40,716 nucleotides of DNA, taken from a virus. Shown here one piece after another: positions 13,714-38,109 of the stretch. A program made the position numbers and the translations under genes. The notes under the pieces were generated by a model. It had not been told where the DNA came from and made no database searches. It saw only the letters and a list, made by a program, of their open reading frames with translations. Where the stretch lies: the UHGV virus genome UHGV-0322864; one strand, written 5' to 3'. Numbering within the stretch: the first letter of the stretch is position 1; the number at the start of each line of letters is the position of its first letter.

Positions 13714-16700
13714 TTAACGAGCTTTCAGTACAGCTACTTCATTCTCCAGAGCTTCAATCTTGTCCAAGAGAACAAGAAGGGCTTCATGATGAAGAGCGGC
13801 TGCTACACCATAGGTGTCAACAGATTTAACATCCTTCACAATTGTTCCATCTTTCAACTCCGTGTCAGAGAATTTAGTAACTTTGACGGCATCCGGAAAA
13901 ACCTTCTCAACATCTTGAGCTAAGAAACCAATACCATTAGGTTTAGAGAGTTTATCCAACCGCTCCCATGTTACACCCTTAATAGCTTTAAGTTTCTCTA
14001 TAGGGTTTTCAATCCGTTTGATATTTGTCTTAAGTCTCTCATCGGAAGTGCTTGCCCAATTCCCTGCTTGTGCCGTTCCATCAGGAAAGAACTTGAAGTC
14101 AGCAGCTGTTCCAGTACCACCATTCACAGAAATCTGAGCGTGCATCAACTCTGTTCCACCACCACGAACACCACCAAAAGTGTAACTGCCATCATACCAG
14201 TCACCAGAGAAATAGGAAACATACCCCGGAGTACTTTGGTTGAAATTGATCATCCTGATAGCGTTCTTCTCACTTGGTGCTACACCAACAGAATTGTTAG
14301 CCCTGACCAGCACGTCAGTAGGTCTTAAGTATGCATCAATTGTTAGTGCCCCGTCAGCCCTCTCTGTTCCAATCTGGGTGATAGCATTGGGAAATACCAG
14401 AGTACCAGCATTATTGAATTTCCATTCCTGGTTTCCATTAAGAATCTTAGCACCAGACTTATTAGAAGCCCCATCTATCTCTCCATAAGCAGACATAGTT
14501 GCTGAGTAGGTTAAATCTGTTCCTATCTTATATTCTGAACGAACCAGACCACCAGATACAGTAAACCCAGCCGATGGTTTAACATCATCGCTATTAATAA
14601 CACTCCAAGAAGTATTAGCAGCAGTAAAGCCACCATTAGCACGAATCACCCAGACACCTATGAAGCTGTTGGTGCGGACTTCGGTCGTGTTGTCGCGACC
14701 ATAAGAGGCGTTTGATAGGCCCGCTCGAAAGCCGACGGAAAGCGCTGGTGTGGTTCCTGCGCCTAACGGAATATTAAGTGCTGGATCAGCCGCAAACATC
14801 GCCCCCGTAGGATCTCCATATACGCTCCATATGTTCGCACCAACGGAGCCTGTAATATCAGGCGCGGCGTTCTGCTGAACAGTACCGTCGTTGGCGCTGT
14901 TACCACCGTCACCGCGAGCATACAGACCAGAGATAGAACCGGTTTGAACGCCATTTCTATCAGGAACGCGGAAAGTAGTAGAACCATCACCTAAAGAGTA
15001 TTTACCTCTTTTCTGAGGATCAGCCAGCCAGTCAGCATCTGTGATAGGGCTTAAGGCTTGAGCATAAGCCCATAAATCTGGATATGAAGTACGAGACAAA
15101 AGTTGTCCATCAGAAGGTACATCATTAGAGTGAATTAAAGCACGACTATCAATTAAACGGAAATCACCTATGTTGAAGTTGGACACTCCGTTTAAGCTTG
15201 CACCACTTCCACCACCTCCTTGGTTGCGTAATTGACGAAGGGTAACTGCATCTGAATCACTAACCGCATCACCACCTAAACGAGTGGGACCAATCAATCC
15301 TTCCAGTTTCGTAATATCTGAGTTAACCCCAGAAGAGTTGATAGCAGCAGCACCAATAGCAGCAGGAGTAGGTTTGTTACCTTCAGTGTAAAACTTATTC
15401 TCACCGCTAGGACCAACATGCACAGGAACCGAAGCAGACAGCACTTTTGTGTTACTTGTATCGTTGCCAACCAAGACAGTACCGTCAGAACCAGAGGTGA
15501 TCAAATTAACAGCAACACCATTACTAGAAGTGCCTGTTAATACAATACCTGTTCCTAGATTTAAGTGTCCTGTCATTTTACCACCAGAAGTAGGAAGAGC
15601 ACCTAAATCAGAAGAGGTCAAAGCAACATTACCTGTTACCTCGTCAGGAACTTTTCCATTAACTGCAACAACATATGGAACTTGAGCAAGAGGCTTACCA
15701 TCATACTGAGCATCACTGGTAAGATTTGGAGATCGAATTGCTTCCCCTCCTGTCCAATCAGGCAGACGGATGTTGATGTAGTTTGTAGAATCCGCATCAG
15801 TGATACCGTCAGCAAGTTTACCCCAAGAATAGTATTGCTTTGAACCAGCCTGCCACTCTGTCTCAGAAACTACCGGAAGCTGACCGTTGACCAAAGAAGC
15901 TCCTAAATCTGATGCAGTGTCTTTGGAAACCAAACGACCATCAGCAGGCAAAATACCCGGGTAAGAAACAGGACGAGATGGGTCATATGGAAACATCAAC
16001 AATTCACCAAGATACAGAGATGGGTTCCCTGTCGGGATGGTGATATCAATATTACCAGTTGAGTCAGGAATACGAGAGTTTACTGTTATTACCCTATTCT
16101 CTGTCTTAACTGGGGTTAATGTTTTGTTCGAAGCTACAGTATAAAATTCATATTTGTAATCTTCCCAAACCAGAACGTTCTCACCAGTTTTTCTGTTAAC
16201 AGCATCGGCATCAGCCGCAGCTTTTGTTCTGTATGTTTTAACATAACCATCCACTTTCCCATCAACCTGAGATGTACTGTAAGATGCAACGTTTACGACA
16301 TTATTTAAACCAACTGAAGTTTTATCTAAGACTAGATTAACATCACCGGTAGCTGGAGATCCTCCGTTCACTGCAACTGAACGAACAGATGGGATTAAGT
16401 TAGCGATATCCTCTAAGGTTGTTTTATGTACGGTATTATCGTCCTTATCAACATAGAATCCTAAATCACCAAGCTCAGGAATACCTGTAGGTGCTGTATC
16501 CAAGTCTTTAACAGAACCATCTTTTCCGGGTTCGCCTTCTGGGATACCTAAAGAGATTACACCAGTGTTAGGGTTAAAAGAACCAGTAGCTTGACTCCCC
16601 GGAGGAAGGGTAGTTACATCAACAGACATTCCCAACAGGATATCAAGCTGTCTCTGAACTTCGATTAGTTTCTGGTTAATGAGAGCAACGGCATTATTAG

Positions 16701-17001
16701 CATCCGACACTGCTGCGTTAGTCTGAGCAATAAGTGTCATCAAACGAGCATCTTGATCTTTAAAGTCCTGTTTAAGATCTTCGATATCTTGCTTCATTAA
16801 AACACCTTGTTGATACAGACGTTCTACTTCAGTGATCAAGTCATCAATTGTACCAAACTTAGACTCCGCTAGCAGTGCCCAATATTTGGAGTCAGCTGCA
16901 TATTCTGCTGCTTGCTTGTAAGCTCCGATAGAGCCTTCCTTAGCACCAAACTGCCCAACATCATTCACTGCATCAGGTGCTTGGCTATTATAAACGATCA
17001 T
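13714..17001 (-). CDS. long tail fibre with collar-like module and C-terminal intramolecular chaperone domain
   Basis: 1095 aa; N-terminal coiled coil; shares a ~200-aa module with the 702-aa fibre (DAVTLRQLRN...GKYSLGDGSTTFRVPDRNGVQ...TSWSVIN); C-terminal SDERLKTNIKRIENPIEKLK...ALHHEALLVLLDKIEALENEVAVLK. Confidence 0.8.
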   Translation of the reverse strand: MIVYNSQAPDAVNDVGQFGAKEGSIGAYKQAAEYAADSKYWALLAESKFGTIDDLITEVERLYQQGVLMKQDIEDLKQDFKDQDARLMTLIAQTNAAVSDANNAVALINQKLIEVQRQLDILLGMSVDVTTLPPGSQATGSFNPNTGVISLGIPEGEPGKDGSVKDLDTAPTGIPELGDLGFYVDKDDNTVHKTTLEDIANLIPSVRSVAVNGGSPATGDVNLVLDKTSVGLNNVVNVASYSTSQVDGKVDGYVKTYRTKAAADADAVNRKTGENVLVWEDYKYEFYTVASNKTLTPVKTENRVITVNSRIPDSTGNIDITIPTGNPSLYLGELLMFPYDPSRPVSYPGILPADGRLVSKDTASDLGASLVNGQLPVVSETEWQAGSKQYYSWGKLADGITDADSTNYINIRLPDWTGGEAIRSPNLTSDAQYDGKPLAQVPYVVAVNGKVPDEVTGNVALTSSDLGALPTSGGKMTGHLNLGTGIVLTGTSSNGVAVNLITSGSDGTVLVGNDTSNTKVLSASVPVHVGPSGENKFYTEGNKPTPAAIGAAAINSSGVNSDITKLEGLIGPTRLGGDAVSDSDAVTLRQLRNQGGGGSGASLNGVSNFNIGDFRLIDSRALIHSNDVPSDGQLLSRTSYPDLWAYAQALSPITDADWLADPQKRGKYSLGDGSTTFRVPDRNGVQTGSISGLYARGDGGNSANDGTVQQNAAPDITGSVGANIWSVYGDPTGAMFAADPALNIPLGAGTTPALSVGFRAGLSNASYGRDNTTEVRTNSFIGVWVIRANGGFTAANTSWSVINSDDVKPSAGFTVSGGLVRSEYKIGTDLTYSATMSAYGEIDGASNKSGAKILNGNQEWKFNNAGTLVFPNAITQIGTERADGALTIDAYLRPTDVLVRANNSVGVAPSEKNAIRMINFNQSTPGYVSYFSGDWYDGSYTFGGVRGGGTELMHAQISVNGGTGTAADFKFFPDGTAQAGNWASTSDERLKTNIKRIENPIEKLKAIKGVTWERLDKLSKPNGIGFLAQDVEKVFPDAVKVTKFSDTELKDGTIVKDVKSVDTYGVAAALHHEALLVLLDKIEALENEVAVLKAR

Positions 17002-17010
17002 ATTATCTCC

Positions 17011-17763
17011 TTATACACGAGAAGTACGAATACCATAAATATCAGGCAAGCTGCTCTGAAGTCGAGTCATGTTATTCGGAATTGCGATAGGTGAACCTGA
17101 GTACTCTTGTTTCTTATGCTGCTCTACTATTTCATCAAGGATAGCTTTTCCTAATGCAGACCATTTCTGAACTCCATTATCATCTTGAACAAATAAGCAA
17201 GCGTGACGTAGAGTGAAATACAGAAGAAGCTCTGGTGCAATAGTGAGGATAGCACTGGTATCTGTATCTTCATGGAATTCCGGTGGGTCCGCATAATAGC
17301 TAAGAATCACTGAGTTTTCTGCTGGAATCAAAGGGCTTCCATCATCAGGATAAACAGGAGTATCTGCTTCAATACTAGGATAGAAAATGAAACGACTCCC
17401 GAAACGAGCAAAGTTAACAGGCTGGTTGTTCCAGTGGGATGGGTTAATTGTTCCATGCTGTCTACGATAGCTAATCTCTTCCGGAGATGTTACTTGGAAG
17501 ATTGTACCATCTTTGGCTCTCATCATCCATTGAGCTTCTAAGTAATCAGGAGGAATATAAGCTACTCCATCTTTAATATCTAAATAGACTTCTTTTTCCA
17601 GAGGAGGAATACGTAAGTTACGATAGATCTCTTTCTCTGCAAAGTTAATAAAGTTTGGAATTTGATTAACAAATTCATCATCGTCTCGATCGGCCCACAA
17701 GGCAACAGCTTTCTTAAGCCAGCCATACGTGTTAATCGGGTTTTGCACTTCAGGCATCGCCAT
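17011..17763 (-). CDS. virion structural protein (head-tail adaptor/connector candidate)
   Basis: 250-aa ORF between the capsid and tail-fibre genes; SD AAGGAGG; coupled to the downstream fibre gene. Confidence 0.5.
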   Translation of the reverse strand: MAMPEVQNPINTYGWLKKAVALWADRDDDEFVNQIPNFINFAEKEIYRNLRIPPLEKEVYLDIKDGVAYIPPDYLEAQWMMRAKDGTIFQVTSPEEISYRRQHGTINPSHWNNQPVNFARFGSRFIFYPSIEADTPVYPDDGSPLIPAENSVILSYYADPPEFHEDTDTSAILTIAPELLLYFTLRHACLFVQDDNGVQKWSALGKAILDEIVEQHKKQEYSGSPIAIPNNMTRLQSSLPDIYGIRTSRV

Positions 17764-17796
17764 AGGTTGTCCTCCTTGTTATATGTAGACAAAGAA

Positions 17797-17805
17797 TATA
17801 CATTA
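17797..17805 (-). promoter_or_regulatory. TAATGTATA motif (candidate phage middle/late promoter element)
   Basis: Exact 9-mer on the minus strand ~33 nt upstream of the ATG at 17763, just downstream of a terminator. Confidence 0.4.
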
Positions 17806-17826
17806 CACACTAGCTTGTATAGGTCT

Positions 17827-17856
17827 TAAAACAAGAAAAGCCACCCGAAGGCGGCT
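17827..17856 (-). terminator. intrinsic terminator after the capsid/Ig-like genes
   Basis: Minus-strand AGCCGCC-UUCG-GGUGGCU (one G.U pair) followed by UUUUCUUGUUUU. Confidence 0.65.
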
Positions 17857-17892
17857 TTATTCTTATGCAATCTCTTTACTAGTTACTGTACC

Positions 17893-18849
17893 TTATACTG
17901 CTTTAGGAGTAGCAGGAATAGAACAAGTAGCTGTAACTGTAGTTTGAGATTTATGTGTTGCCTTAGCTGTAACAGTTTCAACACCCGGATCATCTGCAAG
18001 AGTGAGATTACCAGAGCTATCTACTGTACCAGCAGCAGTTGGGGTTACTTCATAGTTGAAGTTAGTTGCAGCAGTATTACTCGTAAACATATCAGCAAAA
18101 GGTATTACATCGCCACCAACTTTAGCCTCTACAGTTTTAGCTGTGATGGCAGCTTTAGGAACCACACCACTGATAGTCCCTGTAGCAGTAACACTTGTCT
18201 GCGTCTTGTGGGTAGCAGTAATAGTGATATCGCCTGTAGCATTATTCGCTAAAGTAACAAGACCAGTATCAGGGTTGATAGAGGTAGTCATTCCAGAAGG
18301 AGTAGCTACTAGGTTATAATTGGTTGCTGAAGAGTTAGTTGCTGTGAATAAGTTAGCAAACGTAACAGTATCACCACCAATTTTACCAGTGACAGTTTTT
18401 CCAGTAATAGCTGCTTTAGCAACAACACCTGTAAAGGTTACAGTGGCTTCCACACCTGACTGAGTTTTATGGGTAGCTTTAACAGTGACTGTACCTGTTG
18501 CATTGTTGCTTAGAGTTAAAACTCCTGCTGCGCTAACAGTTCCTGTTGATGATGGAGCTACGACAAAAGTATAATCTTCTGCTGAAGAGTTGGTTGCTGT
18601 GAACATTGTAGTAAAGGCTGTAGTGCTTCCACCCACTTTACCAGTAATGTTAGCTTTGGCTTCGATAGTAGCAGGTTCAAAAACAGATTGAACCGTAGCA
18701 GTGCCTTTCTTACCACCTTTAGTAGCCGTAATAGTTGCTGAGGTTTCTTGCGACGCACTCGGTGCAGTATATAGCCCAGAAACAGAAACAGCCCCACCGC
18801 CCTCAACGGACCAACTAAATCCGGTTGTGCTTGTGGAGCCGTCGCTCAT
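17893..18849 (-). CDS. Ig-like (three Big_2-type repeats) capsid decoration module, probably made as a -1 frameshift extension of the major capsid protein
   Basis: Three ~95-aa repeats each ending ...TVTAKATHK(S/T)QT...; no SD before the annotated ATG; frame open upstream into the capsid gene (see findings). Confidence 0.7.
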   Translation of the reverse strand: MSDGSTSTTGFSWSVEGGGAVSVSGLYTAPSASQETSATITATKGGKKGTATVQSVFEPATIEAKANITGKVGGSTTAFTTMFTATNSSAEDYTFVVAPSSTGTVSAAGVLTLSNNATGTVTVKATHKTQSGVEATVTFTGVVAKAAITGKTVTGKIGGDTVTFANLFTATNSSATNYNLVATPSGMTTSINPDTGLVTLANNATGDITITATHKTQTSVTATGTISGVVPKAAITAKTVEAKVGGDVIPFADMFTSNTAATNFNYEVTPTAAGTVDSSGNLTLADDPGVETVTAKATHKSQTTVTATCSIPATPKAV

Positions 18850-18932
18850 TTCTGCTGTAGCTGTAAACTGCTGAGTAGCCCCCGTCGGAAGGCTTGCAAC
18901 CGACGAAGGACTAACAGTTACGGAATCTACTG

Positions 18933-19994
18933 TTACGCCGCCGCTACCTTTCCCGCAGCAGTGAACAGAACGCCGGAAGCATACGGGTTGCGGTGACGCA
19001 GACCAACTTCCATTTCAATCATCCACTTCTCGTAAGAACCGTCTTTAGCCAGTTCAGTACGTTTCGGAGCACGCAGAACCATCTGGGTCCAGTCAGCGCT
19101 ACGGAAGAAGTAAACTGCATCGGTAGGCATCCAACGGTTAACGATGATTTTGTAGCTCTGGCCCAGCGGGTCAGTGATGCTGTTAACTTCGTAGATGAAC
19201 TGCTTGGTGTTCTCAAAGATACGCTTACGTGAACCCTGAGTATTTTCTTGCAGACCAGCGAAGATCTTAGCATGAGCCGGGTTAATCATGATGATGTCTG
19301 CTTCAGAACCAGCGGTGTACAGTTGCAGGGTCATATCAAAGATATCAGCTTCATCAAAACCAATGTTAGTGGTCGGGTTAGAAGCATTCTGTGCAACTTT
19401 AACAGTTACTGCACCAGTATCCGGGTCAGCAGGACCATTCTTGGTCTTGTCAACAACGCCACCAGCCAGACCACCGTGAGCACACAGGAACTGGAATGCA
19501 CCAGTCTTACGAGCTGCATGGGTGTCATTCAGACCAGCAACAGCAGGATCAGCTGCGGAGTTAGTCAGATACTGGTCAGCCAGAACATCGGTACGAGCCT
19601 GACCGGACAGAAGGATTTTCTCGAGGTCACGCTTGATCTCTTTACCTTTCTTCTCCAGCTGATACATCAGTTCACGACCACGACCGTAGTTAGCGGTGGT
19701 GTTAGCAGTATCAGAAACACGAACAACCTTACGCAGAATCTGAGTAACGTTAGATTTGATAACAGTCGGTTTCATTTCACCGTCTTCAGCACGAGAGCCT
19801 TCGACGTGTGCGTTATTACCGTCAACGCTTGCCAGTGCATCGGTCTGCCAGCTAAAGATAGTCTGGTTGATAGACTCTTTACCGGTCATAGATACGAACG
19901 GGGTATCCTGAGGGGACAGAACAGAAATCCAGTTAGCAAAAGAAAGTTTTTTACCATTCTGGTCATACGATACAAATAAAGTTGGATTAGCCAT
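18933..19994 (-). CDS. major capsid protein
   Basis: 353-aa ORF directly after the scaffold gene; strong SD (TAGGAGC); ends FTAAGKVAAA with a G_GGA_AAG slippery heptamer. Confidence 0.75.
   Translation of the reverse strand: MANPTLFVSYDQNGKKLSFANWISVLSPQDTPFVSMTGKESINQTIFSWQTDALASVDGNNAHVEGSRAEDGEMKPTVIKSNVTQILRKVVRVSDTANTTANYGRGRELMYQLEKKGKEIKRDLEKILLSGQARTDVLADQYLTNSAADPAVAGLNDTHAARKTGAFQFLCAHGGLAGGVVDKTKNGPADPDTGAVTVKVAQNASNPTTNIGFDEADIFDMTLQLYTAGSEADIIMINPAHAKIFAGLQENTQGSRKRIFENTKQFIYEVNSITDPLGQSYKIIVNRWMPTDAVYFFRSADWTQMVLRAPKRTELAKDGSYEKWMIEMEVGLRHRNPYASGVLFTAAGKVAAA
18948..18954 (-). other. candidate -1 ribosomal slippery heptamer G_GGA_AAG near the capsid gene 3' end
   Basis: Capsid frame reads GCG GGA AAG GTA GCG GCG GCG TAA; X_XXY_YYZ pattern; the -1 frame is open from here into the Ig-like ORF; hairpin TAACAGT/ACTGTTA 12 nt downstream. 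Confidence 0.6.
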
Positions 19995-20034
19995 GTTATG
20001 TTAGCTCCTATACTATTAATAATTAATTTGTCGA

Positions 20035-21111
20035 TTAATCTACGAGGAATTTGAATGCGTCTTCGTGACTAACGCGACCCTCTGCGAATGCCTTGGCAAC
20101 CTTAGCGTTGTCGGGCTTATTGGAAGTACGAGACTTTGCAGCATCAGACTTCACAACCTTGCGTGGAGCACCGGGACGTTTAATCTTAGCCATCACCTGT
20201 TGCTTACCTTTATCAAATTGGTATGCTTTATGGAGAGCTAGGAAAATAGACGGACGGTTTTCCTTCAATACTTCTTCTTCAGTAGCACCTAAGTCAATTG
20301 CGTATTGCATTAAGTTTTGATATAAGTTTTCATCCCAATTTGGAATCTCACGTTTCAGAATATTAACACATTCAATGCTCTTGGCTTGGAAAGCTTCCTG
20401 CTCTTTAGCTGCTGCTTCCTGCTTAATACGGACCTGAGCCTGTTCAAGCTGTTGACGGCGAGCTGTGTACTTCTCTAGGAAACGTTTGTTTTCAACATAT
20501 GCTTGAGGATCTTCTACTGCAAGCTTGTCCCAATCAAAACCGTTATAATCTTCAATTACTCGGTCTGCTTCTAAAGACGCCAGTTCTAATACATCCTTCA
20601 AACCTACTACACGTTCCTCAAATGCTTCCATATGACGCTGAAGAGTAGTTTCTCGTTCTGTCATATCAGCACCAGTAAGATAGCCATTAGAAAGTTCTTC
20701 AATAGTCATCTCACGTCCATCAGGAAGGGTGATAACGGTTTCGTAGTCTACATCAAAGACCTCACCTTCACCGTCAACAGAATCATCTTCATATTCTGCA
20801 TCGCTTGAATCTTCTTCCTCTTGTTCTTCTGCTTCAGAGGATTCATCTTCATCTTCTTCGACTTCGCCTTCCTCTTCACGATCTTCCCAACCATCTTCAT
20901 CTTCGAACTTAAGCTCATCGCTTTCACCGAGAAGGTCGGTATCAAAGTCGAAATCGTCACCGTCTTTTTCCGGGAACTCATCGTCAATGTCCACTTCTGG
21001 TTCTTGTTCAGATTCTAATCGACCGAGTTCTTCTTTGAAAGAACCTTTCAGGTCATCCAGTTGGAGGAAAGATTTAAAATCGTTCGGGTCAATATAATTA
21101 TCTTGTGGCAT
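20035..21111 (-). CDS. scaffolding protein
   Basis: Between portal and capsid genes; extremely acidic D/E tract (EDEDGWEDREEEGEVEEDEDESSEAEEQEEEDSSDAEYEDD), helical C-terminal half. Confidence 0.6.
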   Translation of the reverse strand: MPQDNYIDPNDFKSFLQLDDLKGSFKEELGRLESEQEPEVDIDDEFPEKDGDDFDFDTDLLGESDELKFEDEDGWEDREEEGEVEEDEDESSEAEEQEEEDSSDAEYEDDSVDGEGEVFDVDYETVITLPDGREMTIEELSNGYLTGADMTERETTLQRHMEAFEERVVGLKDVLELASLEADRVIEDYNGFDWDKLAVEDPQAYVENKRFLEKYTARRQQLEQAQVRIKQEAAAKEQEAFQAKSIECVNILKREIPNWDENLYQNLMQYAIDLGATEEEVLKENRPSIFLALHKAYQFDKGKQQVMAKIKRPGAPRKVVKSDAAKSRTSNKPDNAKVAKAFAEGRVSHEDAFKFLVD

Positions 21112-21347
21112 TATGAAACATCTCCTGCACTATTGATAGCAGCTTTTATGACCTCTTTTAAGCTACCAACCATTTTATACTTTTGATAACAATCTTCGCG
21201 TTTCTTATTCTCATGAGGTTCTGTTTGAACTATCTCTGTCATGAGTCTTTCTTTCAATGCCTCTAATGCTGCGTCAAGACTGCCGTTAAGATTGAGAGCC
21301 GCCAAAGCGGCGGCGTGCTCTTTATTGAATTGATGCCTAATGTTCAT
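21111..21347 (-). CDS. hypothetical small protein
   Basis: 78-aa ORF in the portal-scaffold gap, overlapping stop/start with the scaffold gene. Confidence 0.4.
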   Translation of the reverse strand: MNIRHQFNKEHAAALAALNLNGSLDAALEALKERLMTEIVQTEPHENKKREDCYQKYKMVGSLKEVIKAAINSAGDVS

Positions 21348-21356
21348 TCGACGTCC

Positions 21357-23600
21357 TTACTTTTTACTTCCAAGACGTTTGCCTGGAATCCGTGAATCTT
21401 TGAGAGAAGCTTGTTGCTCTTTCTTAGTTACATTAGCTTCTTTCTTTTGGAGTTCCAAAGTTTTGTCCTGAACACGAGCTTGCTGAACAATCTTCTCTTG
21501 GTCTACCTGATGAGACATAACCATCTGCAATTCTTTCAGTACAGATTCATACTGACGGACCTGCTGTTGCATAAGAGCTAACTTGTGCTTAGCTTGTTCC
21601 AGAGTAGCATTGTTATCTTCTTTACGGTTTTCCAGAGTCATTGCATCTGCTGCATTTTCTTGCTTGAATTGCAACTCTTCCTGACGCAGACTTAATTCAT
21701 CCGCAGCTTTCTGCTGTTCGAATGTAGTACGTTCACGTTGGTCGAATGCATCAGCAATCATCTTCTGAGAAGAAGCCTGTACGTTCTCAACCTGAGCTTT
21801 AGTCATCTCGAGCTGAAGGATTTCCATCGGAGAAGGTTCTGGAGGCTGATACTGTTCCAGAGGCAGAAGGTATTTATGTGTATCTTTAATACCCATCAAC
21901 TCAAAGATCTGTGCAGTCATGTAACGGTCTTGCTCCAAACCAAAGAGAGGTGCTAACTGTGCATCTGCTGCAATCAGCTGTTTCAAGCTAATCAGTTTCT
22001 GTGCACGTTCTGCTTTCTCATTAGGAGAGATAGCTACAACAACTTGAAGATTGTGACGAGCTGGTAGTTGTTTTGGATTTACCTGAATCATACCACGAGG
22101 GGTTTGTACCTCGATAGGAACTTCACCATTTTCTCTGATAAGATTGTAAATACCACGCATCAATTCAACCATACCATTATGAGCAATGTTACGACATACC
22201 ATACGGAGACGGTTCTGTGCAGCATTCATCATCAAGCCTACGGTTGCATAAGCATTATCGTTCTTAAACACATCAGGGTTGATACCCATGCCTAGTTTAG
22301 TTACACCCGTACGTGTCTCTTTAAGCTCCTCAGACATGCCTAGGAGGCCATCAATACCTTGAGGTAGGTTATGGTATGGGAACAGGTCAATAGCGTCCTG
22401 ACGTTCCATTTCAACCACTCCACCGGGACGGTTATCAAGCAGAGAGCGACGATCGTATGCACCAACAAGAGCTTTGTATCGACCATAGTTAGCATTGTTG
22501 ACGTTATCAATGTAACCACGAACTAGCGCGGTACGTAAATCTTGAATATCTTTCGTAATGTCATAGACCGATTGACCATAGAAGGAACCCGGAATCGGAT
22601 ACGGGCAGAAGGTTACAAACGGAATGTGAGTTACTTCTTCAGTGTGAAGGATATGCTCACCAGCTTGAATAACCTGATAGAGTTTAGACTCTTTATTCTT
22701 ATCTAGAACACCAGTACGAATGTAGTGCTCATAAACCCAAACCATAGAAGCAATATCTTCGGTATCTGTACCAATGTCAGCATCAATATCCTGACGCCAG
22801 TCAGTACGAGACCAAGCAACTGTAGATTGAGTGGTATCCATCGTGTCTGTCCAGTCGTTGAATGCTTCAATCTCATCTTTAGGGAAGCCCATAGCAACCA
22901 GATCTTCTTTAGAACGACGTACACGATGACAGAAATATTGTGCATCTGCAAAAGAGGTAGCATGTTCATCAACAAAGATTTGCTCTGAAGGAACATATTC
23001 AACTTTCACACGTTTAACAGTTTGTTCGTAAGTAACTTTAACATCGACTGTACCGTCTTCATTTTCTTCAGTGAAGACTTCCAGATTCTTGAGTCCACCA
23101 GCTTCTAATCCCTGAACATATGCAGCCAATGCTTCCGGTGGTACACCTTCAGCTTCTTCAGTTTGAGTAGAAGTTTGTTCATCCCAATAATACTTGATAA
23201 AAGAGTTACGAGTAACCAGACATTCTTGTGCAGCAGAAGAGATAATATTGTATCCCGGATTATCACGCAGAAGAATTTGGTTGACTAATTTAGTTGCTAC
23301 ATCAGCAGCATCAGAATCCTGTTGGTTGTCAGCTACGAAAGTAACTGCTTCATCACCAGAACAGAATACGTTAATAATATCTTGCAATGTACCGTTAACA
23401 GATTCCCAAACAGTACGATCTACCCAACTAGAGCTGCCAGCAGTTACTGGTGCAGGTAAGTTACCATAGAAATATTCCCAAGCTTCACGAGCATAGCCCT
23501 TAACAGCCATGTCAACGTAACCTTGAGCGTAATTAAAACGACGTTGAAGGTCAACACGTAACTCGTCCAACACCTCTTCACTATATTTTTGCTTAGCCAT
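21357..23600 (-). CDS. portal protein with long C-terminal coiled-coil extension
   Basis: 747 aa immediately downstream of TerL; size and position typical of a portal; C-terminal ~200 aa strongly helical/charged. Confidence 0.75.
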   Translation of the reverse strand: MAKQKYSEEVLDELRVDLQRRFNYAQGYVDMAVKGYAREAWEYFYGNLPAPVTAGSSSWVDRTVWESVNGTLQDIINVFCSGDEAVTFVADNQQDSDAADVATKLVNQILLRDNPGYNIISSAAQECLVTRNSFIKYYWDEQTSTQTEEAEGVPPEALAAYVQGLEAGGLKNLEVFTEENEDGTVDVKVTYEQTVKRVKVEYVPSEQIFVDEHATSFADAQYFCHRVRRSKEDLVAMGFPKDEIEAFNDWTDTMDTTQSTVAWSRTDWRQDIDADIGTDTEDIASMVWVYEHYIRTGVLDKNKESKLYQVIQAGEHILHTEEVTHIPFVTFCPYPIPGSFYGQSVYDITKDIQDLRTALVRGYIDNVNNANYGRYKALVGAYDRRSLLDNRPGGVVEMERQDAIDLFPYHNLPQGIDGLLGMSEELKETRTGVTKLGMGINPDVFKNDNAYATVGLMMNAAQNRLRMVCRNIAHNGMVELMRGIYNLIRENGEVPIEVQTPRGMIQVNPKQLPARHNLQVVVAISPNEKAERAQKLISLKQLIAADAQLAPLFGLEQDRYMTAQIFELMGIKDTHKYLLPLEQYQPPEPSPMEILQLEMTKAQVENVQASSQKMIADAFDQRERTTFEQQKAADELSLRQEELQFKQENAADAMTLENRKEDNNATLEQAKHKLALMQQQVRQYESVLKELQMVMSHQVDQEKIVQQARVQDKTLELQKKEANVTKKEQQASLKDSRIPGKRLGSKK

Positions 23601-23626
23601 CTATTCTCTCCCTCGGTTGATAGCTT

Positions 23627-23655
23627 AAATAAAAGAAGGGAGGACAAACCTCCCC
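23627..23655 (-). terminator. terminator-like hairpin between TerL and portal
   Basis: Minus-strand GGGGAGG-UUUGU-CCUCCC followed by UUCUUUUAUUU. Confidence 0.45.
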
Positions 23656-23660
23656 TTACT

Positions 23661-25202
23661 TTAGTAGCTCTGATTCCATCTGCTTACGTTTGCCTCATAC
23701 AAAGAAGCGCTTCCGAAGCTAACATCATGCTTAGAGCGACCACGATGTGTAACAGAGCACGCTGAATAGCGCATTGCATCCATTAAGTCATCATGTTCTT
23801 TAATAATCTTACCAACCTTACGGTGATATCTAGCTTTCTCTTCGAATAGCTTAGCGTTAGCGGCTGTGTTAAAGACTTTAAAGCGTCCACTCATCATTCT
23901 TTCTCGGATATCTGTGATTCCCGGTTCTACAAAGAAGTTCTTTTTACCATCCATTCCAATTTTGTTGTAGAAGGTCTCACTCTGTACGTTAACTCCTGCA
24001 TTCTTATAGAATTGAGCAACAGATGAACCACTACCTTTCTCAATATTGTCCGCATCGTGCGGTAGGATGACAGGAATCCACTGACCACGACCATTAATAG
24101 CTGGAGCATGATACACTGGAGTAAAGCCACCTTCTTTATATGAGTCGTAAACATAGATAGTATCCGTGTTTGCGTCATAAGCTGTCCAAACAGCAGCAGT
24201 TGGGTGATCAATACCAATATCAATTGCACAGACACGTTTCCACGTATCAGGGATTTCGAATGGTTCACATTTAATTGTGTCATCCGATACATCATAAATC
24301 AAACCACTTCCTAACAATGGCATACCTTTCGAACGCATCTCTAACTGCCACGCTGGAATACCTTCAGTCATATCTTTTATATCTTGGTCAGTGATGTGTC
24401 CACCTAGGTCTGCATGAGCATCCCACCAAGAAGCATTCTGGAAATATAGAGAACCTGTGTTCTCATCTCCTTCACCTTTCATAAATTTATCTACCAGTTC
24501 AGTTAAACCGTTCTCTGGTGTAGCTGTAATTGTAACTAGACCTTTAGTTGTGAGTGTACGTGTGACGCACTGTGCGAATATAGCCATAGACTCATATGGA
24601 TCTTCTTCGTCTAACCAAATGTAGTCAACTGTTGCACCCATCAATGTGTGTTCACCCTGTTGGGTTGAACGAAATTCTAATGTACTTAAACCGTCAAACT
24701 CTCCTCTTTCATTTTGATGTTTGATTTGTACGATTTGAAGTTTGTTACCATCTCGTTCTATCGTATCAATGACGATAGCATCACGAGGAATGACACCTGT
24801 CCCTAATAAGTTTGTATCCTTTCCGATAGGTGTACCAAACAACTCCTTTTGCAATACCTTCCTTGTGGAATCCCCTGTAATACCAACTGCCCATGCTAAG
24901 ATAGGTCTTTTAAATTTATATCCTGTCCACCAAGTTGGGTAGCGACCTGTGACATGACAAGCAAACTCGTATGCCTCGCTATAAGATTTACCAACACGGT
25001 TCGCTGCACACAAGAACCTAAAGCGATGCTTCAATCCTGCTGCATAAAATTTCTTTTGGAAGTCATACGCCTTGAAAGACAAAATCCTATTATACTTCCT
25101 CCATTGGTCACGCTCTTTCAACATATTCAATAGTGCTTTCTTCTCGTCTACACTAAGGTTGTTACCAGTTAGAGCTTCATAAATTTGTTTATCTAATGAC
25201 AT
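23661..25202 (-). CDS. terminase large subunit
   Basis: Walker A LCAANRVGKS, Walker B VDYIWLDEE, RNase-H-like nuclease motifs CAIDIGIDHPTAAVW and DDLMDAMRY; 513 aa. Confidence 0.9.
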   Translation of the reverse strand: MSLDKQIYEALTGNNLSVDEKKALLNMLKERDQWRKYNRILSFKAYDFQKKFYAAGLKHRFRFLCAANRVGKSYSEAYEFACHVTGRYPTWWTGYKFKRPILAWAVGITGDSTRKVLQKELFGTPIGKDTNLLGTGVIPRDAIVIDTIERDGNKLQIVQIKHQNERGEFDGLSTLEFRSTQQGEHTLMGATVDYIWLDEEDPYESMAIFAQCVTRTLTTKGLVTITATPENGLTELVDKFMKGEGDENTGSLYFQNASWWDAHADLGGHITDQDIKDMTEGIPAWQLEMRSKGMPLLGSGLIYDVSDDTIKCEPFEIPDTWKRVCAIDIGIDHPTAAVWTAYDANTDTIYVYDSYKEGGFTPVYHAPAINGRGQWIPVILPHDADNIEKGSGSSVAQFYKNAGVNVQSETFYNKIGMDGKKNFFVEPGITDIRERMMSGRFKVFNTAANAKLFEEKARYHRKVGKIIKEHDDLMDAMRYSACSVTHRGRSKHDVSFGSASLYEANVSRWNQSY

Positions 25203-25271
25203 ACTTCCTCCAGTTTAAAAATAGAAAAGGGAAAGTCCCTTCGTCAAAGAACCTCCCCTTCTTTCCTTTAC

Positions 25272-25745
25272 TTAACTCTCGTCCGCTTCCTCCCCCTTTT
25301 CAGCGTCCTCAGAGTTGTCTTCTTCTGGAGGCATAACATCGATACCAAGTGCTCCAGTCAAGAAGTCCTTGATTTGTGCATTCAATGATTCTTCGTTGAT
25401 TACATTCTCTTCCTCAATCTTAACTTCAACAGAGGCCGCCTTAGGATATACCAGATCTGCAACTTTTGATGCAGCCTTGAATCTAAGATCAGGTGGAATA
25501 TTAGGATCTTCGTAAATTTGAATTAACACTTCATCAGGAGACAAATGACTTGCAGCAACACGGTCCAACATTAATTGTGTCAGTTTACCTCTACTACCTC
25601 TGGGTCGTCCGAATTTATTTCCCTTTTGAAACTTCCCATTGCTTGGGTTCATACCACGGCCTTCAAGTTCTTCCGTTACTCCGGGTAATCTTCCTGTAAT
25701 CTCAGCTACCTGTGCAGGCGTGAGTTCTCCGTTTTCTCCAAACAT
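25272..25745 (-). CDS. putative terminase small subunit
   Basis: 157-aa ORF immediately upstream of TerL; basic N-terminal motif KGNKFGRPRGSRGK and acidic C-terminus. Confidence 0.5.
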   Translation of the reverse strand: MFGENGELTPAQVAEITGRLPGVTEELEGRGMNPSNGKFQKGNKFGRPRGSRGKLTQLMLDRVAASHLSPDEVLIQIYEDPNIPPDLRFKAASKVADLVYPKAASVEVKIEEENVINEESLNAQIKDFLTGALGIDVMPPEEDNSEDAEKGEEADES

Positions 25746-25774
25746 TTTATACTCCTTCTACATTATCAACAACA

Positions 25775-25795
25775 CAAAAAGCCTCCCAAGGGAGG
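25775..25795 (-). terminator. terminator-like hairpin upstream of the TerS gene
   Basis: Minus-strand GCCUCCC-UUG-GGAGGC followed by UUUUUGUGUUGUUG. Confidence 0.5.
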
Positions 25796-25801
25796 CAAAT
25801 A

Positions 25802-26437
25802 TTACTTACAATCACCAACGGACAGGTTAAACATCTTACCTAGAGCAATCGTCTCACCTTCCCACGGAAGTTCTGCACCCTTCTCTTCCTCTAAAAGAAT
25901 AGAGCCGTCGACCAAAAATTTTTCGTAGTCTCGCAGTGCGTCGTCTACTAGCTCACTCTTGTGAATCCACGTAATTGTTTCTGTACCATCCTCTTCGATT
26001 CGAACATCACGATGCCATTCATCTTTGGAGGTAATGTAATCATGGAGCATTTCATATTCAGCTTCTTCAATCATCTCAATCATTACACGAGCATAGTCAG
26101 GGAGGTGATCATGTTTGGTAGATTCATATTCAACTACTTCCAGAGTAGATGGTTGTGTTTTAGTTTTAGAATCAGGGCGAGTAGTATGAATCAAATCTAA
26201 CATGTTTTTGTTCTCCGTAATAGTTGGTTTAAGAATACTTCCACTATATAAATCTTGTACAGCTAGTCCTGAAATATTTCCCATAGTTTCTAAATGTTGC
26301 AAGCTACAACCAGAACGGCATAGCTGTGAATTATAATCGTTAAGGTCCATTGCTTTAATGTGGAAAGGAGAACCAGAAGGGAAACTACCTCCATCTCCAT
26401 AAACACCTTCCATGTTACGTGCGATTAAACTATTCAT
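25802..26437 (-). CDS. hypothetical protein (211 aa)
   Basis: ORF at the head of the late operon; no recognisable motif. Confidence 0.5.
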   Translation of the reverse strand: MNSLIARNMEGVYGDGGSFPSGSPFHIKAMDLNDYNSQLCRSGCSLQHLETMGNISGLAVQDLYSGSILKPTITENKNMLDLIHTTRPDSKTKTQPSTLEVVEYESTKHDHLPDYARVMIEMIEEAEYEMLHDYITSKDEWHRDVRIEEDGTETITWIHKSELVDDALRDYEKFLVDGSILLEEEKGAELPWEGETIALGKMFNLSVGDCK

Positions 26438-26684
26438 CTGTCTCTCCCTTACTGTAATCTTTATACGTTTCTACTTTGTAAGTGCGGAATGCTCTGAAGA
26501 AGAGCCAACCTAAGCTACTCACATCAATTGTAATATCGAAATCTGTTTCATCATCTAAATCAACAAGACGACCTAAGCATGTAGCTTCCATCCCTTCTTC
26601 AGAGTCACTATTGATTACGAAAGCGTATGTCTCTGTTCTAAACCGAGGCACCATCTCTGATAAAAAGTCTAATACTAAATTCAT
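26430..26684 (-). CDS. hypothetical protein (84 aa), first gene of the minus-strand operon
   Basis: ORF overlapping the next gene by 8 nt; SD GAGGAG upstream of ATG. Confidence 0.45.
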   Translation of the reverse strand: MNLVLDFLSEMVPRFRTETYAFVINSDSEEGMEATCLGRLVDLDDETDFDITIDVSSLGWLFFRAFRTYKVETYKDYSKGETDE

Positions 26685-27149
26685 AATTCTTCTCCTCTGA
26701 ATAAGAGTATAAAGGGCACATCATAAGACCTACCCGTAAAGGCCACCTCATACCAACAACCCGTGTACGCTGATAAAGGGAAGAGGTTTAAAGGGGACTT
26801 CATGTTAAGGCACCTTCATAAAGACCATGTCACGTTAAGGCCTATCCATCCATGTGCTGTGTTTAAGCTTACCACATTTACTACATCTCCAAGTGGACTT
26901 ATAAAGGGTGTGAACTCTTTCATCCCCGTAAGCTTTGCGTATCCGATAGTACTCATGATCACATTTGAATTGCTTAATGATTAACTTAATTTTCCACATA
27001 AGTTCTCTTTCAACCTTATATATAAGAGTTTAAAATTCTGATTTGACCGAGTGTGCCTAGCCGCTTCCCGCGCGTTTCCTAAAAAGGGGGAGTCCTCATT
27101 TAAAAAAGGGTTATTGGCAATGCCTTTACACCTCTCCCCAACGTTCCAA

Positions 27150-27650
27150 CCTTCCCCGTGCCTACTCCCCGTTATTCTTTCCCCGTGTATACTACCCAAT
27201 ACATTACCTACCCGTTTATTTAGTTCCCCTTTAAAGAGTGAGAGAAAGGCTAGACTCTGATAAGGCGTAGTCATAGTGACAATAAGAGAGCTAATAATAC
27301 CCATAAGTAATAGCCCACATCCCCCATAGTTTGATTGTAAATAGTTTCAATAGTAATGATTATGAGTGCAATAATGATGTATGTATTAATTAAGTGGAAA
27401 GATTATGTTTGATGTTTATTATTCTTTTAAGAATGATTGTTTTTATTTCTTTTAATACTTTCTTTTTCAGCGTACATGAGCGTAGCGAATGGTCTTTGAT
27501 GTTTGAGTTATACAATTATTTAAGTGGTATATTACTACCGCACTATCTGGCAGTGTTTCCCCGTGGTCTGTCCTGCGGTTGTGTGTTCCCCGTTTGTCCT
27601 GGTCTGTTGGTCTGCTACCCGTAGCGCCAGCGTAACACCCGTAGCGATAG
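27150..27650. repeat. clusters of short direct repeats in the divergent intergenic region
   Basis: Three TCCCCGT copies at 27152-27186; TTCCCCGT(G/T)...GTCCTG twice at 27557-27606; ACCCGTAGCG twice at 27617-27647. Confidence 0.5.
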
Positions 27651-36850: not shown

Positions 36851-36958
36851 TAACGAGAACTCTTAATGAGGATGTATCTTCCCCGCCTTCTAAGCGGTCG
36901 TTAAAGAAGTAATTGGAGTATGCAGGTTCGAGGCCTGTCATCCTCGCTAAGAGTTCTT
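36851..36958 (+). repeat. long imperfect inverted repeat upstream of the HNH gene
   Basis: AACTCTTAATGAGGATG pairs with CATCCTCGCTAAGAGTT (15/17), about 60 nt apart. Confidence 0.5.
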
Positions 36959-36966
36959 GAGGTATT

Positions 36967-37506
36967 ATGAAGCTAGATTTAAGTAAAGCAGTTGTTGATA
37001 AAGGTGTTGGCTATTTGTATGTGTACCAACCAACACACCCTATGGCTAATAAAGCTGGAAAGGTGTATGTTCATAGGTATGTTGCTCAAAATTTCTATGG
37101 TGTCGAACTGAACTCTGACCTAGTGGTTCATCACAAGGATGAGAATAAGTTAAACAATGAGCCATCTAATTTAGAGATCATGACTTATGAGGAGCATAGC
37201 AGGCATCATCATGGGGCTGTTATGGAAGAAAGGTTATGTTCTTTTTGTGGAGAGATTTACCTTGTTTCAGAGAATAGCAACCAAAGGCTTTGCTCACAGG
37301 TTTGCGCCCAATTGGATAGTAGGAGATTTGAGATAACAAAAGAATCTCTTCAATCACTGATAGATACATACCCTGTATATGTAGTAGGACGTCTGTTAGG
37401 TGTTAGTGATGTAGCCATTCACAAAAGATGCAGAAGGCTTGGAGTTGTTAAAAAGCCCCAAGGATTCTGGTTAACCGGAGAAAGACTGAATGAAAAAATT
37501 AAGTGA
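36967..37506 (+). CDS. HNH homing-type endonuclease
   Basis: HNH signature VVHHKDENKLNNEPSNLEIMTYEEHSRHHH, then Cys pairs CSFCGE...CSQVC; 179 aa. Confidence 0.85.
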   Translation: MKLDLSKAVVDKGVGYLYVYQPTHPMANKAGKVYVHRYVAQNFYGVELNSDLVVHHKDENKLNNEPSNLEIMTYEEHSRHHHGAVMEERLCSFCGEIYLVSENSNQRLCSQVCAQLDSRRFEITKESLQSLIDTYPVYVVGRLLGVSDVAIHKRCRRLGVVKKPQGFWLTGERLNEKIK

Positions 37507-37816
37507 TGATGCCATTCAGATGTTAAATGATAGGGCAGAGGAAAGAAAAGATCTTGCTAAGGCTGTTCCGTATTTAGCACCTATTTTATTATTTGTATCC
37601 AGCTTTTACTTTCCAGTTCTTTGGTTTATCACTGGACCTTTGATACTATTTGCTGTGGTTTGGTGTACGTGCAAGTTCACCAAATTTTTATACACAAAAA
37701 GTGTAAAGGTCTATGCAAACGCTAAGAGAGATGGGGAGTTAGATACTCTTGTAGCTGTGATTCTGCTTCTTTCTTTTGTGGCATATCTACTACTAAGCAA
37801 GTGGGGTGTGTTATGA
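37490..37816 (+). CDS. two-TM membrane protein
   Basis: Hydrophobic segments LAPILLFVSSFYFPVLWFITGPLILFAVVWC and LVAVILLLSFVAYLLL; overlaps the upstream stop. Confidence 0.5.
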   Translation: MKKLSDDAIQMLNDRAEERKDLAKAVPYLAPILLFVSSFYFPVLWFITGPLILFAVVWCTCKFTKFLYTKSVKVYANAKRDGELDTLVAVILLLSFVAYLLLSKWGVL

Positions 37817-38109
37817 GTTGGGGTGGTGTAATATCCTTAATCTGTATCTTCATCGTCTGTGTGGCCCTTACAGGCTGCGTACAGAGCCGTCCTGATGGGT
37901 GGTGTGCAGTAGCAGTAAATGGTGCATGTCTATCTACCATTAAAAATGGTAAACCTGTAGCCTCTGGTGATGTTGATATGAGATATGCAGGTATTAAATG
38001 TGTGACTGGATGGAACAGTAAAGAGTGTTCTGGTTCAGTTGAAACTACGGTCAGAGAGTGGGATTATCCTTCAGAGGATAACTCTTCATCTAACGTGAGT
38101 ATTTACTGA
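37813..38109 (+). CDS. Cys-rich lipoprotein (superinfection-exclusion candidate)
   Basis: Signal peptide with lipobox ALTGC (MSWGGVISLICIFIVCVALTGC); five further Cys in the mature part; track start was GTG 37801. Confidence 0.55.
   Translation: MSWGGVISLICIFIVCVALTGCVQSRPDGWCAVAVNGACLSTIKNGKPVASGDVDMRYAGIKCVTGWNSKECSGSVETTVREWDYPSEDNSSSNVSIY

What the first reader, a model, noticed from the sequence alone, without database searches (positions are those of the whole stretch)
37490..38109. Early membrane protein plus Cys-rich lipoprotein pair, a superinfection-exclusion candidate
Seen in sequence: a two-TM protein (37490-37816) overlaps the start of an ORF with a textbook lipoprotein signal (lipobox ALTGC) followed by a ~75-aa mature domain with five Cys. 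Established knowledge: phage T5 Llp and similar early lipoproteins block the phage receptor to prevent superinfection and protect progeny. Inference: an analogous function here; a membrane-targeted effector is the alternative.
Basis: partly seen in the sequence, partly recalled or inferred. Interest (0 to 1): 0.55.

Follow-up and report, generated by a model that had tools for sequence, protein, structure and literature searches.

The report
Phage receptor-blocking lipoprotein with rare membrane partner
The lipoprotein gene belongs to a known phage family whose solved member (Rtp45) clamps the bacterial LPS exporter LptDE from inside to stop further phage attachment. This phage also carries a homologue of the matching LptD-binding tail protein, which suggests a testable candidate for the unknown final receptor of phiEco32-like phages.

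Summary
Both ORFs are real. The window is a Kuravirus (phiEco32-like podophage).

**ORF2 (ATG 37813..38109, 98 aa)**
- It has a lipobox (LTG-C22) and a 77-aa mature part with five Cys.
- It is a full-length member of Pfam PF24052 (98.8 bits).
- It matches PDB 9RPS chain D, Rtp45, the superinfection-exclusion lipoprotein solved on the periplasmic face of LptDE (E 2e-12; profile 1.3e-23).
- It shows no similarity to T5 Llp or Cor.
- The superinfection-exclusion reading is therefore supported by homology, with LptDE as the predicted target.

**The matching receptor-binding protein**
- The window encodes, 32 kb away beside the tail-needle gene (4826..5857, minus strand), a homologue of the LptD-binding receptor protein of siphophage Oekolampad (PDB 9RPT, E 4.9e-12; Pfam DUF6453).
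- This suggests LptD as the unknown terminal receptor of Kuraviruses.
- However, SU10 gp19 was not detected in virions.

**ORF1 (37490..37816, 108 aa, 2–3 membrane helices)**
- It is an orphan: only two relatives exist among 1.84 billion representative proteins.
- It is absent from deposited Kuravirus genomes.
- It is under purifying selection (dN/dS about 0.1).
- In all three occurrences its stop overlaps the lipoprotein ATG.
- Its role is unknown, and it is not a general partner of the lipoprotein.

Overall this is a new member of a known kind.

The parts
37813..38109 (+). Lipoprotein gene (98 aa), Rtp45 / PF24052 family. The signal peptide is encoded at 37813-37875 and the lipobox Cys22 codon at 37876-37878. 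The mature domain is 77 aa, with a conserved Cys31-Cys39 pair, a Kuravirus-specific Cys63/Cys72 pair, an REW motif (res. 81-83) and an allele-specific 15-aa acidic/Ser tail.
   Evidence: PF24052 98.8 bits. phrog_4281 E 3e-28. PDB 9RPS_D E 2e-12, profile E 1.3e-23. Alignment A2. Lipobox and Cys check.
37490..37816 (+). ORF1, a 108-aa small membrane protein. Hydrophobic blocks lie at res. 26-61 (nt 37565-37672) and res. 86-104 (nt 37745-37801). Its stop overlaps the lipoprotein ATG (ATGA). It is an orphan family of three known members.
   Evidence: Only P0001 (94%) and P0013 (44%) were found in 1.84e9 representatives. dN/dS about 0.1. The same ATGA junction occurs in L006 and L011.
36967..37506 (+). 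HNH homing-type endonuclease gene (179 aa). In this phage and in L006 it is inserted between the tRNA-derived remnant and ORF1.
   Evidence: PF13392 HNH_3 and phrog_15471. Absent at this position in Bas93, L011, phiEco32, SGF2, Bas89 and EK5.
36866..36946 (+). Degenerate tRNA-Arg(UCU)-derived element. It occupies the place of the tRNA-Arg gene that precedes the lipoprotein gene in most Kuraviruses.
   Evidence: The alignment shows shared anticodon and T arms, a roughly 18-nt insertion and no D arm. ARAGORN and Rfam find no tRNA. The fold is not a cloverleaf.
4826..5857 (-). 343-aa protein, orthologue of SU10 gp19. It is a homologue of the LptD-binding receptor-binding protein of Oekolampad/Rtp (DUF6453). 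It is proposed to be the cognate receptor-binding half of the module.
   Evidence: phmmer against the Oekolampad RBP E 4e-13. PDB 9RPT_C E 4.9e-12, the only hit. PF20051 85.1 bits and phrog_1265, the same families as RBP_Oeko. Distribution given.
5859..6875 (-). Tail needle gene (SU10 gp18), immediately upstream of the DUF6453 gene with 1 nt between them.
   Evidence: PDB 7Z4B_EA E 4e-209. SU10 tables.

Best explanation
ORF2 encodes an outer-membrane-sorted lipoprotein of the Rtp45 family (Pfam PF24052), expressed from the early-gene block of a phiEco32-like podophage.

Proposed mechanism, inferred from homology. After Sec export, lipidation at Cys22 and Lol sorting (Val at +2), the small disulfide-bonded domain docks on the periplasmic side of the LPS translocon LptDE. 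It pushes a beta-hairpin up the LptD lumen and displaces extracellular loop 4. Phage receptor-binding proteins that need LptD can then no longer bind. The result would be superinfection exclusion, and protection of progeny from adsorbing to infected cells and debris.

The same genome carries a homologue of the LptD-binding receptor protein (DUF6453, next to the tail-needle gene). The simplest reading is that this phage itself uses LptD at a late step of adsorption and that the lipoprotein is the cognate exclusion factor. The two genes are uncoupled in position and timing.

ORF1 is a genuine but very rare small inner-membrane protein, inserted between the lipoprotein gene's ribosome-binding site and its ATG and translationally coupled to it. 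It is not needed for the family's function. Its role (accessory to exclusion, or unrelated) is unknown.

What is shown: gene reality, family membership, conserved motifs, gene arrangement and rarity of ORF1. What is inferred: lipidation, LptDE binding, the exclusion phenotype, early timing, and use of LptD by the phage.
For: Family membership:
- PF24052 scores 98.8 bits over profile positions 1-80 of 80.
- PDB 9RPS_D (Rtp45) matches at E 2e-12 with the single sequence and 1.3e-23 with the profile.
- The end-to-end alignment has invariant G21 C22 G29 C31 G37 C39 G46 G52 D55 G60 G74 and a C-terminal [KR]EW.
- Cys31/Cys39 align with the Rtp45 Cys30-Cys38 disulfide.
- Res. 31-36 align with the Rtp45 strand that pairs with LptD 318-323.

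Rtp45 mechanism: taken from PMC12685063.

The same two families travel together:
- In E. coli siphophages the lipoprotein gene directly precedes the 321-aa RBP gene.
- The window protein 4826..5857(-) belongs to the same DUF6453/phrog_1265 family as RBP_Oeko.
- Both families show matching host distributions. The lipoprotein is in 382 records and the RBP homologue in 284, in Escherichia, Klebsiella, Shigella and Cronobacter phages.

Early block: the orthologue phi32_106 lies among genes above 68, in the leftward early cluster.

Precedent: an O-antigen-dependent podophage uses LptD as its secondary receptor (DEV, PMC12892993).

ORF1: reality is supported, and rarity.
Against: - No experiment on this protein or on any Kuravirus orthologue was found.
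- SU10 gp19, the DUF6453 orthologue, is listed 'no/no' in the SU10 structural-protein table, like terminase, holin and lysin. It was therefore not detected in virions.
- Published Kuravirus resistance maps to O-antigen loss, and no LptD dependence has been reported.
- Identity to Rtp45 is only about 40-50% over about 60 residues.
- Kuravirus members carry an extra Cys pair with a variable insert, and this allele has a 15-aa tail after the normally C-terminal KEW. The target or binding mode could therefore differ.
- The signal peptide lacks a basic n-region.
- The AF2 model was too poor for any structural check.
Confidence: 0.65

Rival explanations
1. ORF1 and ORF2 form a dedicated two-component exclusion system. 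The outer-membrane lipoprotein would block the receptor, and the inner-membrane ORF1 would block a later step such as DNA or ejection-protein passage, in the way T4 Imm is thought to act. Alternatively ORF1 could help the lipoprotein's export.
For: In all three known occurrences the ORF1 stop overlaps the lipoprotein ATG (ATGA). This holds although the two ORF1 forms are only 44% identical, and although in L011 no HNH gene lies between the remnant and ORF1. ORF1 is under purifying selection. It has a small membrane-protein architecture.
Against: More than 100 Kuravirus genomes, and all siphophage members of the family, have the lipoprotein without ORF1. ORF1 matches no Imm, Sp, Sie or other family. 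The site next to the tRNA remnant is an insertion hot spot, with HNH genes on either side, so the linkage may be positional only.
Confidence: 0.15
2. The lipoprotein binds an outer-membrane protein other than LptD, or it binds LptDE for a purpose other than self-exclusion. Possible purposes are excluding competing LptD-dependent siphophages only, or throttling export of new O-antigen-bearing LPS.
For: The middle and C-terminal parts are hypervariable among Kuraviruses, with an extra disulfide loop of 8 to about 40 residues (in the comparison with L006, sequence divergence is saturated beyond codon 35). gp19 was not found in SU10 virions. Known Kuravirus receptors are O-antigen glycans. Rtp45 holds LptD closed and blocks EL4 movement, which could affect LPS insertion.
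Against: The segments that contact LptD in Rtp45 (strand 30-35, the disulfide and the hairpin with G46, G52, D55, R57) are the conserved ones. A DUF6453 homologue is conserved in all Kuraviruses examined, which is hard to explain if LptD is irrelevant to them.
Confidence: 0.15
3. The pair is a lysis cassette, either holin plus o-spanin or i-spanin plus o-spanin.
For: A small membrane protein overlapping a small lipoprotein gene resembles the overlapped Rz/Rz1 arrangement. phiEco32-type phages are listed as having two-component spanins.
Against: ORF2 is homologous to Rtp45, not to spanins. ORF1 has no periplasmic coiled-coil domain and has two or more hydrophobic segments. It has no holin or spanin family hit. 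The phage has its own holin (11254..11472, minus strand) and endolysin (10733..11224, minus strand) in the late block. ORF1 is absent from nearly all relatives.
Confidence: 0.02

Closest known systems
Rtp45 of coliphage Rtp (Pfam PF24052; PDB 9RPS chain D) and its Oekolampad homologue bas18_0026
   Same: Same family over the whole mature domain. Shared features are the lipobox Cys, the RPDGWC...C disulfide pair, the hairpin motif G..VP.G[DE]VD.RY.G and the C-terminal [KR]EW. A DUF6453 RBP homologue is present in the same genome.
   Different: The host phage is a podophage, not a small siphophage. The gene lies in the early block after a tRNA-Arg remnant, 32 kb from the DUF6453 gene, instead of directly upstream of it. 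It has an extra Cys63/Cys72 pair and a 15-aa C-terminal tail, and the signal peptide has no basic residue. It is preceded by ORF1.
phi32_106 'putative phage lipoprotein' of phiEco32 and its Kuravirus orthologues
   Same: It is the orthologue, at the same position. The first 35 codons are nearly identical, and 92-95% identical at the DNA level across more than 70 phages.
   Different: Identity is only 58-69% overall. This allele has a 2-residue rather than 15-40-residue insert between the extra cysteines, plus a tail. Its only close match is P0002, at 93%. The orthologues lack ORF1 and the HNH gene.
T5 Llp and Cor (phi80/T1/N15), the FhuA-blocking lipoproteins
   Same: The same general logic applies: a small lipoprotein acting from the periplasmic side to make a receptor unusable (PMC9586334).
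   Different: There is no detectable sequence relationship. The predicted target is LptDE, not FhuA. Rtp45 acts by steric loop displacement rather than long-range allostery.
Pseudomonas podophage DEV (gp54 and LptD)
   Same: It is an O-antigen-dependent podophage with LptD as its secondary receptor. This parallels what is proposed here for Kuraviruses.
   Different: It has a different receptor-binding protein system (the gp54-56 fibre). No similarity was tested or claimed, and no exclusion lipoprotein is described for it.

Membership tests
PF24052 / Rtp45-type exclusion lipoproteins | Match to the family HMM above the curated cut-off, over the full length | tested here: met
   98.8 bits against a cut-off of 27, profile positions 1-80 of 80. 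phrog_4281 E 3e-28. Rtp45-like AKS96, SE_Oeko and the Webervirus proteins hit the same models.
PF24052 / Rtp45-type exclusion lipoproteins | Lipoprotein signal with a lipobox Cys | tested here: met
   IFIVCVALTG-C22 fits the PROSITE-type pattern. The Cys is invariant in the alignment. Caveat: there is no Lys/Arg in the n-region.
PF24052 / Rtp45-type exclusion lipoproteins | Conserved disulfide pair (Rtp45 Cys30-Cys38) and LptD-pairing strand | tested here: met
   Cys31 and Cys39 align with them and are invariant in 17 sequences.
PF24052 / Rtp45-type exclusion lipoproteins | Gene adjacent to a DUF6453 RBP gene downstream of the J-like tail-tip gene | tested here: not met
   The DUF6453 gene is at 4826..5857(-), 32 kb away. 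This is a feature of the siphophage locus, not of the protein family. Klebsiella Weberviruses also have the two genes unlinked.
PF24052 / Rtp45-type exclusion lipoproteins | Binds the periplasmic face of LptDE and blocks RBP binding (exclusion phenotype) | not testable with these tools
   Known only for Rtp45. The AF2 model here is unusable (pLDDT 45), and the authors report that AF3 complex models are wrong.
T5 Llp / Cor FhuA-blocking lipoproteins | Sequence or profile similarity to Llp or Cor | tested here: not met
   The profile search of the whole PDB at E<=10 returns only 9RPS_D plus noise. The PDB copy should contain Llp, but this was not checked directly. There is no Cor PHROG hit and no Pfam hit other than PF24052.
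Two-component spanin (Rz/Rz1 type) | i-spanin with one N-terminal TM plus a periplasmic coiled coil, an o-spanin lipoprotein, and location in the lysis cassette | tested here: not met
   ORF1 has two or more hydrophobic blocks and no soluble domain. The holin and endolysin lie elsewhere. ORF2 belongs to another family.
Holins / T4 Imm-like membrane immunity proteins (for ORF1) | Match to any holin, Imm, Sp or Sie family | tested here: not met
   There are no Pfam, PHROG, NCBIfam or PDB hits. An analogous function cannot be excluded.
DUF6453 / LptD-binding RBPs (for 4826..5857, minus strand) | Family HMM match and similarity to the solved RBP_Oeko | tested here: met
   PF20051 85.1 bits (cut-off 25), profile positions 29-289 of 291. 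9RPT_C E 4.9e-12, aligned over res. 77-316. phrog_1265 E 2e-105.
DUF6453 / LptD-binding RBPs (for 4826..5857, minus strand) | Virion component at the tail tip that binds LptD | tested here: inconclusive
   SU10 gp19 (343 aa) is listed as not detected in virions by gel-band mass spectrometry. A single-copy protein could have been missed. No binding data exist.

The most novel reading that the evidence does not exclude
Kuraviruses (phiEco32, SU10 and relatives), whose terminal receptor is unknown, may finish adsorption on the essential LPS translocon LptDE. They would do so through gp19, a DUF6453 protein encoded next to the tail needle that has been overlooked in virion studies. The early lipoprotein would be its unlinked exclusion factor. 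In a few phages the exclusion gene would have acquired a translationally coupled inner-membrane partner (ORF1), adding a second layer of exclusion.
Probability: 0.35. Interest if true: 0.7.

Novelty: new member of a known kind. Interest (0 to 1): 0.5.

Why it matters
Kuraviruses are common E. coli phages that are considered for therapy and are notably resistant to restriction, yet their terminal receptor is unknown. This genome carries both halves of the LptD recognition and exclusion module known from small siphophages. That gives a concrete, cheap test: lptD loop mutants, lipoprotein expression and gp19 knock-out.

LptD is essential and highly conserved, so phages and phage proteins that engage it are of interest for phage steering and as leads for LptDE inhibitors. 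The case also shows that receptor-binding and exclusion genes can be separated in genome position and expression time. It further shows that PHROG-derived labels ('membrane protein', 'moron') hide a receptor-binding protein family.

ORF1 is a rare orphan whose strict coupling to the exclusion gene may point to an accessory function.

Tried and rejected
- **AF2 of ORF2.** With a 12-sequence alignment the model had pLDDT 45, so no fold search was run.
- **AF2 of ORF1.** pLDDT was 58.6, and the model was used only as a helix count.
- **Searches for ORF1.** tblastn against 50,697 phage records found no match even at E<=1. IMG/VR and JGI metagenome scans found no relatives. Pfam, PHROG, NCBIfam and PDB gave nothing.
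- **An early idea that was dropped.** I first thought ORF1 was cargo of the HNH insertion. I rejected this after contig L011 showed an ORF1 relative fused to the lipoprotein gene with no HNH gene between the remnant and ORF1.
- **tRNA upstream.** ARAGORN and Rfam find no tRNA; only a degenerate remnant is present.
- **Promoter and terminator scan of 35500-40000.** The counts were no more than expected in shuffles, so the scan was uninformative.
- **Lysis reading.** Spanin and holin interpretations were rejected.
- **Literature gaps.** The original Rtp paper (PMC1367250) is not held. Rtp45's exclusion role is therefore cited through PMC12685063.
- **SU10 table.** The column headings of SU10 Supplementary Table 1 were not retrieved. 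'No/no' is read by analogy with terminase, holin and lysin.
- **Rtp45-LptD contact table.** Fig. S16 is an image, so residue-by-residue contact conservation could not be scored.

Full report
**What the window is.** The region around the finding matches phiEco32-like podophages (Gordonclarkvirinae, genus Kuravirus). Examples are Bas89, SGF2, phiEco32 and EK5, at up to about 95% identity over 20 kb. Late and structural genes lie on the minus strand (315..27304). The finding lies in the plus-strand block of small genes. In phiEco32 this block is the early class, transcribed opposite to the late genes.

ORF1 (37490..37816, 108 aa) and ORF2 are both present.
- All homologues of ORF2 begin MSWGGV. 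Its start is therefore ATG 37813, not GTG 37801, and it overlaps the ORF1 stop as ATGA.
- ORF2 has a lipobox that fits the PROSITE-type pattern (IFIVCVALTG-C22). Residue +2 is Val, which by the established E. coli Lol rule predicts outer-membrane sorting. The mature domain is 77 aa with Cys at 22, 31, 39, 63 and 72.
- The only blemish on 'textbook' is that the n-region has no basic residue.
- ORF1 has a charged N-terminus, a 36-residue hydrophobic block (26-61), a Lys-rich loop and a C-terminal hydrophobic helix (86-104). A low-confidence AF2 model gives three helices.

**What ORF2 is.**
- It is a full-length member of Pfam PF24052 'Phage lipoprotein family' (98.8 bits, cut-off 27) and of phrog_4281.
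- Searched against all PDB sequences, its only hit is 9RPS chain D (E 2e-12). A profile of 17 family members scores E 1.3e-23 against that chain and matches nothing else.
- 9RPS is Shigella LptDE-LptM bound to Rtp45, the superinfection-exclusion lipoprotein of coliphage Rtp.
- In that structure Rtp45 sits on the periplasmic side of LptD, between LptE and LptM. Its residues 30-35 form a beta-sheet with LptD 318-323, and it has a Cys30-Cys38 disulfide. It sends a hairpin up the lumen that displaces extracellular loop 4 by up to 20 A, so the phage receptor-binding protein cannot bind.
- In my alignment the lipid Cys, the disulfide pair (Cys31/Cys39 here), and G29, G37, G46, G52, D55, G60 and G74 are invariant from Kuraviruses to Rtp-like, Dhillonvirus and Klebsiella Webervirus members. 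R57 and the C-terminal E82/W83 of the [KR]EW motif are conserved in at least 90% of them.
- Homology therefore extends over the whole mature domain and includes the elements that contact LptD in Rtp45.
- There is no detectable similarity to T5 Llp or Cor.

**What is special about this allele.**
- Kuravirus members have an additional Cys pair (63/72) flanking an insert of very variable length.
- In this window the insert is 2 residues, and a 15-residue acidic/Ser-rich tail follows the motif that is normally the C-terminus.
- Only one database cluster is close (P0002, 93%). All others are at most 69% identical.
- At the DNA level codons 1-41 are 92-95% identical to more than 70 phages, and similarity then collapses (saturated divergence beyond codon 35 against L006).

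**The matching receptor-binding protein.**
- In E. coli small siphophages the lipoprotein gene directly precedes a roughly 321-aa gene facing the J-like tail-tip gene. This is the LptD-type RBP locus of Maffei et al. 2021. The Oekolampad RBP has been solved inserted into an open state of LptDE (9RPT).
- I compared that RBP with all ORFs of the window and found one strong hit, the 343-aa protein at 4826..5857 on the minus strand (E 4e-13).
- In the reverse direction this protein's only PDB hit is 9RPT chain C (E 4.9e-12, residues 77-316 against 72-297).
- Both proteins belong to Pfam DUF6453 and phrog_1265. That PHROG is labelled 'membrane protein / moron', which explains the uninformative GenBank annotations.
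- The gene lies 1 nt downstream of the tail-needle gene (SU10 gp18, 7Z4B, E 4e-209) and upstream of the transglycosylase ejection protein. It is therefore the orthologue of SU10 gp19.
- It is conserved in Kuraviruses at 45-97% identity, and its wider distribution mirrors that of the lipoprotein.
- Klebsiella Weberviruses also carry both genes unlinked.

**Consequence and caveat.**
- The terminal receptor of Kuraviruses is not known. Published work points to O-antigen for the long fibres and to an undefined surface receptor for the short fibres and needle.
- No paper in the library connects Kuraviruses with LptD.
- Carrying both halves of the LptD module suggests LptD as a late receptor. This parallels Pseudomonas podophage DEV, which uses O-antigen first and then LptD.
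- Against this, SU10 gp19 is listed as not found in virions, alongside terminase, holin and lysin. That analysis used major gel bands, so a single-copy tip protein could have been missed. The point remains open.

**What ORF1 is.**
- It has no match in phage GenBank records, Pfam, PHROGs, NCBIfam or PDB, IMG/VR or JGI metagenomes.
- An exhaustive HMMER scan of 1.84 billion representatives finds only two relatives: P0001 (94%) and P0013 (44%, E 6e-5).
- P0001 lies on a 1.1-kb contig with the same order, HNH then ORF1 then lipoprotein. Between the two, ORF1 shows dN/dS about 0.1, so it is a real gene.
- P0013 lies on a 726-bp contig. There it follows the tRNA-derived remnant and the lipoprotein gene's own Shine-Dalgarno sequence directly, with no HNH gene between the remnant and ORF1, and it again ends ATGA on the lipoprotein start.
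- ORF1 is therefore linked to the lipoprotein gene, not to the HNH gene.
- In most Kuraviruses the lipoprotein gene follows a tRNA-Arg gene directly. In this phage, Bas93 and L011 that tRNA is replaced by a degenerate remnant.
- ORF1's function cannot be assigned. Coupling to the exclusion gene makes an accessory role possible, but the site is also an insertion hot spot.

**Rejected readings.** A lysis cassette is ruled out by three observations. The late block contains a dedicated holin and endolysin. ORF1 lacks i-spanin architecture. ORF2 belongs to a different family.

**Verdict.**
- The exclusion interpretation is supported for the lipoprotein by strong homology to a structurally characterised exclusion factor. 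The predicted target is LptDE rather than FhuA.
- The 'pair' is a rare, lineage-specific arrangement.
- The lipoprotein is a new member of a known kind.
- The most interesting by-product is a testable prediction that Kuraviruses engage LptD through gp19.

Noticed in passing
window 36866-36946 (+): The tRNA-Arg(UCU) gene that precedes the lipoprotein gene in phiEco32, SGF2, Bas89 and EK5 is replaced here by a degenerate derivative, as it is in Bas93 and contig L011. The derivative keeps the anticodon and T arms, lacks a D arm and has a roughly 18-nt insertion. ARAGORN and Rfam do not call it a tRNA.
   Followed up: partly
window 36967-37506 (+); L003 2508-2957; L011 48-191: HNH endonuclease genes sit on different sides of the tRNA remnant in different phages: downstream here and in L006, upstream in Bas93 and L011. 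This marks the site as an insertion hot spot.
   Followed up: partly
window 4826-5857 (-): The DUF6453 homologue of the LptD-binding RBP is annotated in GenBank relatives as 'membrane protein', 'exonuclease' or hypothetical. The labels come from the PHROG 1265 description 'membrane protein / moron', which looks like a systematic misannotation.
   Followed up: yes
window 37813-38109; break near 37935: The lipoprotein gene is mosaic. The first roughly 41 codons are 92-95% identical at the DNA level to more than 70 Kuraviruses, and the rest is highly divergent. The hypervariable insert lies between the Kuravirus-specific Cys pair.
   Followed up: partly
L008 (Klebsiella phage Trimon) 3995-4222; TAH8 hits H45 and H115: Klebsiella Weberviruses carry the PF24052 lipoprotein next to a Dam methylase gene, about 10 kb from their DUF6453 gene. 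Unlinking of the exclusion and RBP genes is therefore not unique to Kuraviruses.
   Followed up: partly
window 29336-30966: This is an ORF-poor stretch of about 1.6 kb in the early block. It contains four spaced copies of the motif CCGCTCTTTAA(A/T)AA, at 29668, 29777, 29904 and 30137. It may be regulatory or origin-like.
   Followed up: no
window 39316-39733: A 418-bp intergenic gap lies upstream of the D5-like transcription regulator gene. It contains a strong terminator-like hairpin at 39527-39546.
   Followed up: no
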